Assembly (NCBI GenBank): GCA_965287045.1
Contig: OZ336889.1
Span: 16,244,001 to 16,308,000 of the forward strand
Length of the DNA stretch: 64,000 nt
Origin: Carcharhinus amblyrhynchos
Lineage: Eukaryota
Direction: 5' to 3'
Below are positions 30,001 to 36,000 of this stretch, piece after piece. Position numbers: made by a program. Numbering within the stretch: the stretch's first letter is position 1; each line of letters starts with the position of its first letter.

Positions 30001-33000
30001 CCGGGCAGATTTAAAAAAAACTTACCTTGGAGGAAAAATCTTAGCTTTAATATTCTTGCACATGTTTACCATTCCAAAACTATGAATTATCAGAGTTATT
30101 CAGGTGTCAAAAAATTGGTTTAAACAAATTTGTGTTTTTGTAAATGCTAAATGAATGCTTCAAGATTAAATGCTGTCAAGGGGCTTGTGTTGTAATTATA
30201 GAATTTGTGTAATTGCAATTGGCAACAAGCCTGAAACAATAGTAGATATATATTTCTGGAAAGCGAGTGCTACGTAAACAGAGGACTATACATAATTCTG
30301 GGGACTACTGCCAACAGATTGAATGGGCATCTGAAAAACTGTTTCTCTGCACTAAGGTCAAAACGCCATGTTTTTGCAGAACAGCACATTTAATCGAAGA
30401 AACGTCAGCATAAAACCCCATTTATCAAGAGATTGACAAGGTCAGCCCTGGAACATTACGTAAAATAGAAGGAACCAATGAGTGCTATGGATTTTAGTGG
30501 GTTTAAGATTTTTTTTTTAGCAACTCTTGTTGTTTAAGGTAGACTGATCCACTGATTTTGTAATAACGTGGCTTGAGCAATTTTTCATCTCCCAACCTTT
30601 CCCCACTTCCCATGCCACATGATATGGCTAATATTAGCCCCCTCCCCCTGCCCCGCCCCAAGTGTGCCATGAAAATGAACGATATTGGAGTTTCTAAGCT
30701 AGTACTTGGTTGCCTTGTTTGGCTTTTCTGTTATGTTTGCAATTATAAAAGCAGATCTGGCACTCCTCCTCATCAGTCTTGAATTTACCATGTTACCTTT
30801 ATCCCAATATTTGTGTGGCTGAGTACCTGAGAAATTATAGGGAAGTTTAAATGCCTGTGGCAATTCAAGGCAGAAGAATACTGAAAGAAGAGCTGGAATT
30901 CCTGGAAATGGATCCTTGCTGAAAACAGCTGAGAGAAAGCATCATTTGGAAAAAGATTCTTAGACTGGTCTTTTCGAGAGAGAAGTTTGGGAACATTTGT
31001 GTGATAATCATCTGGGCGATTTGAGAAGTGCACAAATGTTCAAGTGGGGGACACGTGCCACTGGGTTTCAGAGTGGGGCATGTCTCACACAATCTGTTGC
31101 TTTAGAGAGAATGTGTATTTACTGAAAACATTATAGCACAAGATACATTTTGTAACCTTAGAGATTATTAAAATGGTTTTTTTTATCTGTTGTTAAAAGG
31201 TAATTGGCAATCCTATAATTCTGCTTATCCACATTTTCTAAAAAAAAGTAACAGTATTTTGAAACAGCGTTCCATTCTCGGACTTTCCAGTCCAGGAGTA
31301 ACATCAACTGGGATCGCAACAAACTTTCTCAGAAAGCTCGGAAATTTGGCATGTCCACTAAAACTCTCACCAACTTTTACAGATGCACCATAGAAAGCGT
31401 TCTTTCTGGATGTATCACAGCTTGGTATGGCTCCTACTCTGATCAAGACTACAAGAAACTACAAAGGGTCATGAATGAAGCCCAGTCCATCATGTAAACC
31501 AGCCTCCCATCCATTGACTCTGTCTACACATCGCTGCCTCGGAAAAGCACCCCAGACATTCCCTCTTCCATCTTCTTCCGTCAGGAAAAACATACAAAAG
31601 TTTGAGGTCACGTACCAACCAACTCAACAACAGCTTCTTGCCTGCTGCCAGACTTTTGAATAGACCTACCTCATTATAAGTTGATCTTTCTCTACATCCT
31701 AGCCATGGATCGAACACTACATTTTGCATCCTCTCCTTTTCTCCTCTATGAACACTATGCTATGTCGGTGTACTTTTCACTGTATGCTAATGGATGTGAC
31801 AATATTAAATCAAATCAGAAAAATAAGGGGTAGTCTTGAATAATGCAAGTCATTGACAGGGGTGCACCACTGCTGCAGGCTGTTCCCTGCAAGGCCCCAC
31901 TTGCACTGATATGTTGCAGAAAAGCACTGGCCAGGGTGGAAATGGTTGAAAAGTTCCCAAAGTTGGCGTAGCAGTTGAAGCTGGGTGGGCGAGCTGTGGG
32001 ATACATGATGAGGAAGTGGTTTATTGTAGCGCCATATTGATTCAATTTCTGCTGCCACAGGGCTTCTGCTCTTCTGCCTTGGCACAGTGATCTTAGTAAG
32101 AAGTCTCTCAACACCAGGTTGAATTGCAAACAACATCTCATTTATCTTGGTAGAGATGTTTGCTGAGCAGGAACTTGCAAAAGTTCCTGCTCAGCAAACT
32201 TGCTGGCTCTCCATGGGGTGCAGGTCTATTTGACTGCAGTGTACTTTGCACCAATATGGTACAACTCCTTTCCCAGTCTTGTTAATCCCCAACTCAGCGC
32301 AATGTGTACAATTTTGGGTATCTTCCAATCAATTTAATGCCCCTACTTCCCAGTCATGACCACCCTCTTGCCCCTCACAAGGAGGTAGATTGTAACAAGG
32401 CGGCTCCTGAAGAAGGGTTACATCAACCCAAGTTTTCCACTACACAGGGACCACACCAATTCACCTGCTGTTCACCTCATGTAGTGCCATCCTGTCTGGC
32501 TAAGATCACTGTGATGTGGGGATGCTGGCATTGGACTGGGGTAAACACAGCAAGAAGTCTCACAACATCAGGTTAAAGTCCAACAAGTTTATTTGGTAGC
32601 ACAAGCCACATGCTTTCAGAGTACTGTGCTCCTTCATCAGGTGAGTGGGAGTTCTGTTCACAAACAGGGCGTATAGAGTCACAAACCCAATTTACGAAAT
32701 AATGATTATAATTATCAAGCACTATTTTGTAAATTGGGTTTGTGTCTTTATATGCTGTTTGTGAACAGAACTCCCACTTACCTGATGAAGGAACAGCACT
32801 CCGAAAGCTAGTGACTTGTGCCACCAAATAAATCTGTTGGACTTTAACCTGGTGTTGTGAGACTTCTTGCTGTGTTTACTCCAGTCCAACGCTGACATCT
32901 CCATATCACGGTGATCTTCGCCAGACAGAATGGCACTACACGAGGTGAGCAGCAGGTGAATTAGTGTGGTCCTTGTATAGTGGAAAACTTGGGCTGATGT

Positions 33001-36000
33001 AATCCTTCTTCAGAAGCCTTCTTGTTGCAATCTACCTCCTCATGTGAGGGGCAAGAGGGTGGTCATGACTGGGAAGTAGGGGAGTTAAATTGATTGGAAG
33101 ATACCCAAAATTGTACACATTGTTGCGCTGATCTGGGGATTGACAAGTCTGGGAAAAGAATTATACCATATTGGTGCAAAGTACACTGCAGTCAAGTAGA
33201 TCTGCACCCCATAGAGAGCCAGCAAGTTTGCTGAGCAGGAGCTTTTGCAAGTCCCTGCTCAGCAAACATCTCTACCAAGATAAATGAGATGTTGTTTGCC
33301 ATTTAGTCTCTTGCCATTCAAGGAGATGTTAAATTCCTTCTTGGTTCTGGCAATGTGAAGATGGAATATATTTGAGACTATTTTGCTGCTGCTGGGCTTA
33401 TAGTGGTTGGCTGGCTTTGCAACACTGTTGTTTAGTTGTGTAATGCAAAGAACAAAACAGCACAGAAAACAGGCCCTTCGGCCCTCCAAGCCTGCACCGC
33501 TCATTGGTCCAACTAGACCATTCTTTTGTATCCCTCCATTCCCCGTCTGCTCGTGTGACTATCGAGATAAGTCTTAAACAATCCCCAGTGCTATAAGTTT
33601 TCATACATCTATATATTTGATGGCTATATCCAATTGCTTCTTGTTGCTACATATGCACTTCACAGACATTTGTGAGCAGGTGATGTGCATGCAATTAGTT
33701 CCTCAACAACAGTAACTGTGTCTCACTTTCCTGCTACTGTCAATTATTGTCAATGGAATAGAGCAACATGCTGTCACTGAAAAGGTAATTTTATACAAAG
33801 TGTCTAATCCTTGCGCTCTCTGTGACAAGGACTTGTGTATATAGCATCTTTAGCATGACAAAACGTCCCAAGCTTGTTCAAAGGAGCATTGTAAAGCAAA
33901 ATGTGAAACTGAGCCACATAAGCTGATATAGGGATAAATTACCAAAATCTTGGTCAAAAAAGTCAGTTTTAGGGAGTATCTTAAAGTAAAAAGAGAACAA
34001 GGGGGGTTTGGGGATGCTTAGAGCCTTCGAAGTTGAAGACACAGCCACCAATGGTAGAGTGAAAATTGGAAATGCTCAAGACCAGAATTTGAGGATGGAA
34101 GATACCTCATAGTTGTGGGGCTGCAGGAGCTTACAGAGATAGAGAGTGACAAGGCCATATAGGGATTTGAAAACAAGAACGGCAAACAATTAAAAAGCAA
34201 AAGGAACCCAACGTGTTTAGAGATCTGTCTTCAAACAGGAGTATGTAACAATCAGCAGAGTACTTTTACTCTTGAACAATCTGCTAGACATTTATTCATC
34301 ACATTAGATTGTTTAGAACTTACCAAGCTGCAGAGCACCTTTTATTTGATCTAATCCAGATTTTCTTTCTGCTTCATTCCGGAATCGTCTACGAATGGTA
34401 GGAAAGACTTTGGTTTCCCAGGCTTTGACTAAAAGTGCATAGTGATCCTCCTGTGGAAGGACAACATAAATCACAGCAACAAGACACTGCTAGTTGACCA
34501 ATTGTATTCTGCAATTAATAGGATAAAACAAAAACTCAAATCACTCCTGCTTGGAATTAAACCTGTAAATCTGGCTAATTCTTCACTTGTTTGCAAGTAT
34601 TTTTCATTCATTATATTTCTTCCCATTTCCCATGTCCCTTAATATAGAAAGCACAAAGTTACATATTACAAGGAGAATAACTTGTATTGAAATACAGAAT
34701 ATAAGAACATAAGAAATAGGAGCAGGAGTAGACCATCTAGCCCTTCGGGCCTGCCCTGCCATTCAATAAGATCACGGCTGGTCTGAAGTGGATCAGCTCC
34801 ACTTGCCCGCTTTCTCCCCATAACCCTTAATTCCCCTGTCTATCAGAAACCTGTCTACCCGTAACTTAAATATATTCAGTGAGGTAGCCTCTACCACTTC
34901 AGCGGGCAGAGAATTCCAGAGATTCACCACCCTTTGAGTGAAGAAGTTCCTCCTCAACTCCGATCTAAACTGCCCCCTCCTTATCTTGAGGCTGTGCCCT
35001 TTAGTCCTGCTATCCTTTCTAAGCAGGAAGAATCTCTCTACCTCTACCCTATCCATCCCCTTCATTATCTTATACATCTCAATGATTCCCCCCTCAGCCT
35101 TCTAAACTCTAACGAGTACAGACCCAGTCTATTCAGTCTCTCTTCATAGGCTAACCCCCTCATTTCTGGTATCAGCCTAGTGAACCTTCTCTGCACTCCC
35201 TCCAAGGCCAATATATCCTTCTGCAAGTGTGGCGACCAAAACTGCACACAGTACTCCAGCTGCGGCCTCACCAGTACCCTGTACAGTTGCAGCAAGACCT
35301 CCCTGCTTTTATATTCTATCCCCCTTGCTATAAAGGCCAACATTCCATTCGCCTTCTTGATCACCTGCAGACTGGGTTTTTGTGATTCGTGCACAAGGAC
35401 CCCCAGGTCCCTCTGCACTGTAGCATGCTGCAGCTTTTCGCCTTTCAAATAATAATCCCTCCCACTATTATTTCTACCAAAGTGGATAACCTCACACTTG
35501 CTACTCCATCTGCCAGATCCTCACCCACTCGCTCAGCCTATCCAGATTTCTCTGCAGACTTTCCACACCCTCCACGCAATTTGCTTTTCCACTCATCTTT
35601 GTGTCATCAGCAAATTTCATCTCCCTACACTCAGCCCCCTCCTCCAGATCATCTATGTAAATGGTAAACAGTTGAGGCCCCAGCACCGATCCCTGCGGCA
35701 CTCCACTAGTCACCAACTGCCAACCAGAATAGCACCCATTGATTCCAACTCTCTGCTTCCTATTAGACAGCCAATCCTCTATCCACGCTAACACCTTAGC
35801 CCCAACTCCATGCACCCTAACCTTCTGCAGCAATATACTGCAGAACATACTCATGAGTGGGCTGACCGAAAACCTCATGATAAAAATATAAATTCTATGC
35901 CACTGTTCTTCATAACTGATTATGGTTAGGTCAGATGAATACAATTAAGCGAAATATGCATTTCAAAGTGCAATATGGTTCTTGATGAATTGTTATATTA

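What the first reader, a model, noticed from the sequence alone, without database searches (positions are those of the whole stretch)
32083..33299. 1.17-kb palindrome: a Penelope-like insertion that copied ~385 bp of its own target flank in inverted orientation
Seen, left to right: TSD cacagtgatcttag (32083-32096); a 24-nt inverted pLTR piece taagaagtctctcaacaccaggtt (32097-32120); an inverted copy of the right-hand flank (32126-32513 = rc of 32907-33299); an inverted pLTR (32514-~32707); a ~10-nt loop; a forward pLTR (~32716-32906); and a second TSD cacggtgatcttcg (32907-32920, 12/14 match). Removing the insert restores a collinear Vingi-like LINE, so the duplicated flank is DNA of this target site, not sequence carried from a donor locus. 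Known: PLE copies often have inverted pLTRs. Inference: the target-primed cDNA folded back, self-primed, and was extended back through the element/target junction ~385 nt into chromosomal DNA, then switched to pLTR sequence before joining. This would be a readable fossil of the poorly understood PLE second-strand step, and a route for making long palindromes in shark genomes.
Basis: partly seen in the sequence, partly recalled or inferred. Interest (0 to 1): 0.85.

Follow-up and report, generated by a model that had tools for sequence, protein, structure and literature searches.

The report
Retrotransposon insertion that mirrored its own flank
A small Penelope-type retrotransposon fragment sits at the centre of a 1.18-kb DNA palindrome whose arms run on into a mirrored copy of the neighbouring chromosomal DNA, most likely a by-product of how the element was pasted in.

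Summary
Arms 32122-32711 and 32713-33303 form one hairpin-capable palindrome (52 substitutions in 582 aligned positions, 42 of them transitions), so it is old and real, not a read artefact. Each arm holds about 195 nt of a repeat plus about 383 nt of flank. A 13-14-nt target-site duplication occurs three times.

These are a head-to-head inverted copy, an approximately 38-nt tail on one outer end only, short duplications, and a minimal hammerhead motif. Rfam gives no hammerhead match.

New here: the 24-nt piece is not a late template switch. A second insertion at 17247-17379 starts with the same tail-less terminus. That fits published biochemistry in which both target strands are extended from two start sites.

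Best reading (0.55): the tail-side cDNA snapped back and was copied through the tail, the duplication and 383 nt of flank. It then joined the tail-less cDNA at a TAAA microhomology.

Main rival (0.3): a later repair or replication switch driven by an ordinary inverted insertion. One locus cannot separate them.

"Vingi-like LINE" found no support. Self-priming was proposed for these elements in 2013, and LINE-1 insertions with mirrored flanks are described, so this is a new variant of a known kind.

The parts
32083..32096 (+). Target-site duplication, copy 1 (left, next to unduplicated flank A)
   Evidence: 14 of 14 identical to the reverse complement of 32500-32513, and 12 of 14 to 32907-32920.
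32097..32120 (-). Tail-less outer terminus of the element, antisense, 24 nt. Read here as a short cDNA primed from the top-strand nick.
   Evidence: Matches 32552-32574 (D2). It stops at the same element position as the inverted piece at 17260-17289 (alignment A1).
32120..32123 (.). Outer junction. TAAA is present in both parent sequences (inverted repeat and reverse-complement flank); the observed letters are TGAA.
   Evidence: Three-way register comparison.
32122..32499 (-). Inverted copy of the right-hand flank
   Evidence: With the TSD, 91.4% identical to 32907-33303, E 1.8e-161. 27 of 378 substitutions.
32500..32513 (-). Target-site duplication, copy 2 (inverted, inside the left arm)
32514..32551 (-). 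Inverted copy of the approximately 38-nt tail
   Evidence: Alignment A1.
32552..32711 (-). Inverted repeat body (pLTR-like), running up to the axis
32712..32712 (.). Symmetry axis of the palindrome (no spacer)
   Evidence: Axis scan: 24 of 30 pairs match either side.
32713..32868 (+). Forward repeat body (pLTR-like). It holds the minimal hammerhead-type motif at 32782-32810.
   Evidence: The motif pattern gave 1 match in the window against 0.01 expected. There was no Rfam hammerhead hit.
32869..32906 (+). Tail: an approximately 38-nt 3' extension that is absent from the tail-less termini
   Evidence: Alignment A1. Tails of 30-40 bp at one end only are described in PMC8557442 and PMC3846280 (passages).
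32907..32920 (+). Target-site duplication, copy 3 (right)
   Evidence: 12 of 14 identical to copy 1.
32921..33303 (+). Original right-hand flank that was mirrored
   Evidence: The flank profile finds no other copy in the window.
33226..33267 (.). 42-nt hairpin-forming stretch within the flank (mirror copy at 32158-32199), 36 nt inside the outer end of the duplicated segment
   Evidence: the repeat finder I7 and I9.
17247..17379 (+). Second, ordinary insertion of the same repeat. Layout: 12-nt TSD (17247-17258 and 17368-17379), tail-less inverted piece 17260-17289, short loop, forward piece with tail ending at 17367.

Best explanation
This reading treats the palindrome as the product of one integration event of a 5'-truncated Penelope-type element into a target of the form A-TSD-B.

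Shown by the sequence:
- The right junction is element-tail-TSD-B.
- The left junction is A-TSD followed by a tail-less antisense terminus.
- Between them lies a spacer-less palindrome whose left arm reads reverse-complement B, TSD, tail and repeat.

Inferred steps:
1. The endonuclease nicked both strands 13-14 nt apart.
2. The bottom-strand 3' end primed a cDNA from the tail start site, about 195 nt long.
3. The top-strand 3' end primed a second cDNA from the internal, tail-less start site, 23-27 nt long.
4. The 3' end of the long cDNA snapped back on itself at 32712. It was extended along its own strand through the repeat, the tail, the TSD and 383 nt of chromosomal DNA. It either displaced the old top strand or filled a resected gap.
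5. That 3' end paired with the 3' end of the short cDNA through TAAA. Each was then extended on the other, which unfolded the hairpin into a duplex palindrome.

Where the strand that reaches the short cDNA pairs with it by homology, in register, the usual short inverted copy results, as at 17247-17379. Here it overshot. The strong hairpin 36 nt before the end of the copied flank may have stopped the polymerase.
For: - Anatomy and triple TSD.
- A spacer-less axis. PMC3846280 (passages) takes palindromic inverted junctions as the sign of self-priming in these elements.
- The same tail-less terminus was found in 2 of 2 insertions of this repeat in the window.
- PMC11167929 (main text read) reports that a purified Penelope-type protein cleaves and extends both target strands. 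It starts at two sites, and the interval between them is the tail.
- The tail measured here is about 38 nt, against 30-40 bp in PMC8557442 (passages).
- TAAA is shared by both parents exactly at the outer junction.
- There is no step in arm divergence where a later event would predict one. The inner part has 15 of 129 substitutions and the outer part 37 of 453 (Fisher p = 0.22). The 61 nt that would have to be young are as diverged as the inner part, at 8 of 61.
- LINE-1 shows the same class of outcome at the reverse-transcribed end (bioRxiv 10.1101/2024.12.14.628481, passages).
Against: - This is a single locus, and the final structure is the same under a later rearrangement.
- The divergence test has little power, and its trend goes the rival's way: 11.6% in the inner part against 8.2% in the outer part. 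The repeat plus tail, at 23 of 190, is more diverged than the flank plus TSD, at 29 of 392 (p = 0.065).
- No Penelope reading frame or consensus could be compared.
- Rfam finds no hammerhead. The monomer does not fold stably.
- Whether the polymerase in step 4 is the element's or the host's is unknown.
- The T at the start of both tail-less termini is not templated by the full copies, which have the complement of G there.
Confidence: 0.55

Rival explanations
1. Later rearrangement. The element first inserted in the ordinary form: A, TSD, tail-less inverted arm, forward arm with tail, TSD, B. Much later the roughly 160-195-bp inverted repeat stalled replication or provoked a break. A nascent 3' end 24-27 nt into the left arm then switched by TAAA microhomology to the opposite strand 383 nt beyond the right arm. 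It copied back through flank, TSD and tail, and returned by homology within the arms.
For: - The ordinary form exists nearby, at 17247-17379.
- The microhomology junction suits replication-based switching as well.
- The inner arms are somewhat more diverged than the outer ones, 15 of 129 against 37 of 453. That is the direction this model predicts.
Against: - The difference is not significant (p = 0.22). The segment 32846-32906, which this model makes young, is as diverged (8 of 61) as the inner part.
- It needs two rare events rather than one.
- Perfect inverted repeats are generally expected to lose their centre rather than to grow (recalled, not tested here).
Confidence: 0.3
2. The 1.18-kb unit is a mobile foldback element, or a flank carried over from a donor locus, rather than a copy of this site's own DNA.
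For: Genome-wide copy number could not be checked. No eukaryotic genome collection was available.
Against: - The unit is bounded by a 13-14-nt duplication, and its third copy lies inside the left arm exactly at the tail/flank border.
- Profiles of the flank find only the two arms in 64 kb.
- Joining A to the better-kept copy of B at one TSD gives an open frame of 166 codons. Stop-free runs that long cover 0.63% of the window's frames.
Confidence: 0.05
3. Assembly or sequencing artefact, such as a fold-back chimeric read.
For: Penelope-type tandem and inverted structures are known to upset assemblies (PMC8557442, passage). No reads could be inspected.
Against: - The arms differ at 52 of 582 positions, 42 of them transitions, plus 9 gap columns. 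That is the pattern of evolutionary decay; reading one molecule twice would not produce it.
- The left border has its own TSD and terminus.
Confidence: 0.03

Closest known systems
Ordinary Penelope-like insertion with an adjacent inverted, 5'-truncated pLTR, a one-sided tail and a short TSD (for example Pen2a_Av of Adineta vaga, PMC3846280; general scheme in PMC8557442)
   Same: - Head-to-head inverted copies with a palindromic junction.
- A tail of 30-40 bp on one end only; the inverted copy is shorter by about that length.
- A TSD of about 8-14 bp.
- A hammerhead-type motif in the repeat.
   Different: - Here the inverted arm does not stop at the element's end. It contains the tail, the TSD and 383 nt of target DNA, and only then meets a separate 24-nt tail-less terminus.
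- No reading frame is present in this copy.
[quoted passage not shown]
   Same: [quoted passage not shown]
- There is short microhomology at the junction.
- A TSD-like overlap is kept.
   Different: - The enzyme and element class differ.
- In the two inverted-duplication examples in the passages I read, the duplicated flank lies on the reciprocal end. Here the fold-back apex lies inside the element's cDNA, on the reverse-transcribed end.
- This is a germline, fixed, old event, not one from a cell clone or tumour.
LINE-1 twin priming (recalled; mentioned in the abstract of PMC2837659 seen in the listing, and in passages of the bioRxiv paper above)
   Same: Both target strands prime cDNA synthesis, which gives an inverted segment within one TSD-flanked insertion.
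   Different: Twin priming inverts a different part of the element and makes no palindrome. It does not copy flank.
Palindrome formation started by short inverted repeats after a nearby break (recalled from the yeast and mammalian amplification literature; not looked up)
   Same: Intrastrand annealing and fill-in extend an inverted repeat into neighbouring DNA.
   Different: Those events give chromosome-scale palindromes. This one stops after 383 nt and is sealed to the other side of the same target site.

Membership tests
Penelope-like element (endonuclease-bearing type) | Reading frame with a telomerase-like reverse transcriptase and a GIY-YIG endonuclease | not testable with these tools
   This copy holds only about 195 nt of terminal repeat. 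Pfam scans of 53 proteins (8, 45) covered 51 of the 57 stop-free frames of 90 aa or more listed, plus two shorter frames. Six of the listed frames were not scanned: 31818-32141(-), 32576-32875(-), 32725-33009(-), 35150-35449(+), 35386-35664(+) and 35456-35788(+). The scans gave RVT_1 at 21509-21910 and 35501-35944 only, and no GIY-YIG. The parent element is not in the window, and no eukaryotic genome or repeat library was at hand.
Penelope-like element (endonuclease-bearing type) | Inverted, 5'-truncated copy lying head to head with the forward copy, with a palindromic junction | tested here: met
   Axis at 32712 with no spacer. The second locus has its axis at 17294.5.
Penelope-like element (endonuclease-bearing type) | [quoted passage not shown] | tested here: met
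   In 2 of 2 insertions in the window, the forward end carries about 38 nt that the opposite outer terminus lacks (alignment A1).
Penelope-like element (endonuclease-bearing type) | Short target-site duplication | tested here: met
   13-14 nt at 32083/32907, and 12 nt at 17247/17368.
Penelope-like element (endonuclease-bearing type) | Hammerhead ribozyme motif in the terminal repeat | tested here: inconclusive
   By direct reading, 32782-32810 has the conserved core and an extra base between positions 9 and 10.1. It also has a G10.1-C11.1 pair, then GAAA followed by a palindromic GC and U-A. These are the traits listed for minimal Penelope hammerheads in PMC4209133 (passages). The pattern gave 1 match in the window against 0.01 expected. 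Against this, there was no Rfam hammerhead hit at the gathering score or at E up to 10. The left-arm copy is mutated at position 16.1, helix II has only 3-4 pairs, and the monomer fold is no better than shuffles.
Penelope-like element (endonuclease-bearing type) | Sequence match to a curated Penelope consensus | not testable with these tools
   No Repbase or Dfam library and no eukaryotic genome collection was available.
Vingi or other LINE (identity of the target DNA) | Recognisable reverse transcriptase, endonuclease or RNase H domains, or protein relatives | tested here: not met
   - Pfam: nothing for four flank frames.
- HMMER against 1.84 billion representatives: 0 hits for the 94-aa A frame.
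- Word search among longer proteins: 0 for A and 0 for B.
- Atlas: no usable hit.
- No likeness to the neighbouring LINE frame: the two alignments for the 33259-33558 frame had E 6.0 and 9.2, and for 32167-32337 the best was a 17-residue alignment at E 0.006 for that single comparison, which I take as chance.
Mobile foldback element | The whole unit present at several sites with different flanks | not testable with these tools
   There is one copy in 64 kb. The genome was not available.
Insertion-coupled inverted duplication of flank (as described for LINE-1) | Inverted copy of DNA adjoining a TSD-flanked reverse-transcribed insert, with a microhomology junction | tested here: met
   That it arose during integration is inferred, not shown.

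The most novel reading that the evidence does not exclude
The locus may be a fossil of a Penelope integration intermediate. If so, it shows three things in a vertebrate germline:
- Both target strands primed cDNA from the two start sites so far seen only in vitro.
- The inverted arm of these elements is made by snap-back of the cDNA while it is still attached to the target.
- This step can run on into chromosomal DNA.

Penelope-type elements would then be a source of long palindromes and local inverted duplications in genomes rich in them.
Probability: 0.45. Interest if true: 0.65.

Novelty: new variant of a known kind. Interest (0 to 1): 0.5.

Why it matters
How Penelope-like elements make their second strand and their odd inverted copies is still open. 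[quoted passage not shown]

An insertion whose inverted arm contains the tail, the target-site duplication and unique flank identifies the template for that arm. It was the cDNA already joined to the chromosome, not free RNA. The tail-less terminus on the far side fits priming from the second strand.

If such run-on insertions recur, they would give a cheap genomic read-out of that step. They would also explain some long palindromes in genomes rich in these elements; such palindromes are fragile sites and assembly traps. As a single old locus it remains an anecdote.

Tried and rejected
- **Rfam hammerhead search.** Run on the whole window at gathering scores, on 32000-33400 and on 32740-32860 at E up to 10. 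No hammerhead family appeared. The only hits were microRNA and small-RNA models, which I read as matching the long hairpin as such.
- **Naming the target DNA.** Pfam, word search among longer proteins for the A and B frames, the HMMER run on the A frame and the Atlas all found nothing. Pairwise comparison with the LINE frame at 35065-35520 gave only chance-level alignments. The LINE or Vingi label is therefore dropped, not confirmed.
- **Dating the outer and inner parts of the arms separately.** No significant step was found.
- **Monomer fold of the hammerhead candidates.** It was no more stable than shuffles.
- **Break at the centre followed by end joining.** Rejected because the two arms on separate ends are not complementary and cannot lengthen the palindrome (reasoning only).
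- **Replication and sister fusion of an open end, as for LINE-1 foldbacks.** Rejected because it gives a chromosome-scale palindrome and would not restore the order A-B-C.

**Left unchecked**
- Genome-wide copy number, the empty site in related species, and read support.
- Supplements of the cited papers, such as Figure S2 of PMC11167929 on tails in genomic copies, were not opened and may bear on the tail claim.
- Whether a run-on of a Penelope inverted arm into flank is already in print was looked for only with the searches, which showed none.
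Full report
**What is there**

The window has no N and is 39% G+C. Between 32122 and 33303 lies one palindrome of 1182 bp.
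- The repeat finder reports collinear inverted pairs that together cover 32122-32707 and 32717-33303.
- blastn gives 91.4% identity over 397 columns for the flank part (E 1.8e-161) and 86.2% over 203 columns for the core.
- A global alignment of the right arm with the reverse complement of the left arm is unbroken from the centre outwards and collapses beyond 32122/33303.
- The axis is base 32712, with 24 of 30 pairs matching on either side, so there is no real spacer.
- As single-stranded DNA the stretch folds into one hairpin of -592 kcal/mol.
- The arms differ at 52 of 582 aligned positions (36 transitions, 6 CpG transitions, 10 transversions) plus 9 gap columns. This is the mark of long decay. 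It argues against an artefact made by reading one molecule twice.

**Layout, left to right**

| Coordinates | Feature |
|---|---|
| 32083-32096 | TSD |
| 32097-32120 | 24-nt antisense piece of the repeat |
| 32120-32123 | junction |
| 32122-32499 | inverted flank |
| 32500-32513 | inverted TSD |
| 32514-32551 | inverted tail |
| 32552-32711 | inverted repeat body |
| 32712 | axis |
| 32713-32868 | forward repeat body |
| 32869-32906 | tail |
| 32907-32920 | TSD |
| 32921-33303 | flank |

The left TSD equals the inverted copy at 14 of 14 positions and the right copy at 12 of 14.

**Is the core a Penelope-type element?**

No repeat library or eukaryotic genome was available, so a consensus match could not be tested. 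The parent element's reading frame is not in the window. What can be tested are structural signatures.

A profile built from the two arms finds only one other place in 64 kb. It is an insertion at 17247-17379 with this layout:
- a 12-nt TSD on both sides;
- a 30-nt inverted piece;
- a short loop;
- a forward piece that ends with the same 3' end as the right arm here.

In the alignment of all five ends, both inverted outer termini stop at the same element position. The three full ends continue for about 38 nt. This is the "tail" described for Penelope-like elements: 30-40 bp, present at one end only, beside an inverted 5'-truncated copy (PMC8557442, passages). PMC3846280 (passages) describes a 31-bp tail and an inverted pLTR (pseudo-LTR, the element's terminal repeat) that is 37 bp shorter.

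The forward arm also carries, at 32782-32810, the hammerhead core with three further traits. There is an extra base between positions 9 and 10.1, a G10.1-C11.1 pair, and GAAA followed by a palindromic GC and U-A. These are the traits that PMC4209133 (passages) lists for the minimal hammerheads of these elements. The pattern occurs once in the window against 0.01 expected.

Three results count against this motif. Rfam gives no hammerhead hit at any threshold tried. The left-arm copy is mutated at a core position. The monomer does not fold better than shuffles. I therefore rate the ribozyme as inconclusive and the Penelope-type identity as likely. That identity rests mainly on the tail, the head-to-head copy and the TSD.

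**Is the mirrored DNA this site's own flank?**

- The TSD brackets the insert, and its third copy sits inside the left arm exactly between tail and flank.
- Joining A to the better-preserved left-arm copy of B at a single TSD gives an open frame of 166 codons that reads the TSD in the same frame from both sides. Stop-free runs of that length cover 0.63% of the window's frames. That join was made inside a script only and was sent to no search.
- The flank profile finds no further copy in the window.

So the duplicated DNA is target DNA.

The label "Vingi-like LINE" found no support:
- Pfam found nothing for four flank frames.
- HMMER against 1.84 billion representatives gave 0 hits for the A frame.
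- Word searches among longer proteins gave 0 for A and 0 for B.
- The Atlas gave no usable hit, with low recognition values.
- There was no likeness to the LINE frame at 35065-35520: one flank frame gave alignments at E 6.0 and 9.2, and the other a best alignment of 17 residues at E 0.006 for that single comparison, which I take as chance.

The frame may be an old, decayed coding sequence of unknown kind, or it may be chance.

**What the 24-nt piece is**

Its left end coincides with the tail-less terminus of the independent insertion at 17.3 kb, so it is a regular element/target junction.

PMC11167929 (main text read) reports two relevant findings for a purified Penelope-type protein. It cleaves and extends both strands of the target. 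Reverse transcription starts at two internal sites, and the interval between them corresponds to the tail. A cDNA primed from the top-strand nick at the inner site would give exactly this terminus.

At the other end of the piece, the inverted repeat would continue with TAAA, and the reverse-complement flank also reads TAAA at that point. The observed letters are TGAA. This is a 4-nt microhomology junction with one later change.

**Most likely mechanism (confidence 0.55; steps inferred unless marked)**

1. Two nicks were made 13-14 nt apart.
2. A cDNA of about 195 nt grew from the bottom-strand end, starting at the tail site.
3. A cDNA of 23-27 nt grew from the top-strand end, starting at the inner site.
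4. The long cDNA snapped back at its 3' end. It was extended along itself, through tail and TSD, and 383 nt into the chromosome.
5. Its tip paired with the tip of the short cDNA through TAAA, and each was extended on the other. This unfolds the hairpin and yields the observed top strand without any hairpin-opening nuclease.

The sequence shows directly that reverse-complement tail, TSD and flank are contiguous on the same strand as the forward copy. Those three are contiguous only on the chromosome-attached strand. The template of the left arm therefore was that strand or its duplex, not free RNA.

The run-on ends 36 nt after a 42-nt hairpin-forming stretch in the flank (pairs I7 and I9), which may have stopped the polymerase. 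That is speculation.

The closest precedent outside this class is the LINE-1 work in bioRxiv 10.1101/2024.12.14.628481 (passages). There, insertions with inverted duplication of adjoining DNA are explained by a self-annealed 3' end that primes synthesis at a break end made during integration.

**Main rival (0.3)**

An ordinary inverted insertion came first. Later the inverted repeat provoked a replication or repair switch from 24-27 nt inside the left arm to the opposite strand beyond the right arm, with return by homology. This gives the same product.

It predicts older inner arms and younger outer arms. Observed values are 15 of 129 for the inner part against 37 of 453 for the outer part (p = 0.22). 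The 61 nt that must be young under this model stand at 8 of 61. So there is no step, but power is low and the trend points the rival's way.

Divergence is highest near the axis, with 6 substitutions and 2 gap columns in the first 50 nt. It is lowest at the tips, with 1 substitution in the last 37 nt. I cannot explain this. Selection for changes that weaken the centre of a palindrome is one possibility (recalled).

Minor rivals are a mobile foldback unit or carried donor flank (0.05) and an assembly artefact (0.03). The reasons against them are given above.

**Novelty**

- Self-priming as the source of the inverted junctions was proposed in 2013 (PMC3846280).
- Extension of both strands and the origin of the tail were shown in vitro in 2024 (PMC11167929).
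- Inverted duplication of flank coupled to insertion is described for LINE-1.
- My searches turned up no report of a Penelope-type inverted arm that runs through the tail and TSD into unique flank. Those searches cover open-access text only.

I rate the finding as a new variant of a known kind, with interest 0.5. It is a clear and readable single case whose worth depends on whether it recurs.

**Context**

A 450-codon frame at 13788-15137 on the minus strand is 76% identical over 97% of its length to proteins named HECTD4 or HECT-domain ligase in birds, reptiles, amphibians and ray-finned fishes. The window is therefore vertebrate and not mammalian-looking, and I do not take it for human. Whether it comes from a shark was not determined. 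The palindrome may lie in an intron of that gene, which was not tested.

Noticed in passing
window 17247-17379: A small, ordinary insertion of the same repeat. It has a 12-nt duplication on both sides, a 30-nt tail-less inverted piece, a short loop, and a forward piece of about 75 nt with the tail. It served as the control for the 24-nt piece.
   Followed up: yes
window 13788-15137, minus strand: An open frame of 450 codons with no Pfam hit. It is 76% identical over 97% of its length to HECTD4-type HECT ubiquitin ligases of other vertebrates. It is probably a large exon, so the window lies within or next to that gene.
   Followed up: partly
window 32158-32199 and 33226-33267: The mirrored flank contains its own 19-bp stem with a 4-nt loop. 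The stem is perfect in the left copy and 89% paired in the right copy. It lies 36 nt inside the outer end of the duplicated segment and may be where the copying stopped.
   Followed up: partly
window 32713-32766 compared with 33267-33303: Divergence between the arms is highest next to the axis, with 6 substitutions and 2 gap columns in 50 nt. It is lowest at the tips, with 1 substitution in 37 nt. This gradient is unexplained.
   Followed up: partly
window 32097 and 17259-17260: Both tail-less termini begin with a T (preceded by an A at 17259). The full copies of the repeat would not template it, because they carry the complement of G at that position. It may be a non-templated base added at initiation, or a variant in the source element.
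   Followed up: no
window 34793-35944 minus strand; 21509-21910 plus strand: LINE-type reverse transcriptase fragments. RVT_1 scored E 3.9e-09 at 35501-35944 and 6.8e-05 at 21509-21910. The first is followed by a long carboxy-terminal frame. Neither is related to the palindrome's flank.
   Followed up: no
window 31252-31680, plus strand: Frames immediately left of flank A that look to me like the carboxy-terminal part of a fish-type LINE protein. That impression is recalled, not tested. They lie on the strand opposite to the 166-codon frame.
   Followed up: no
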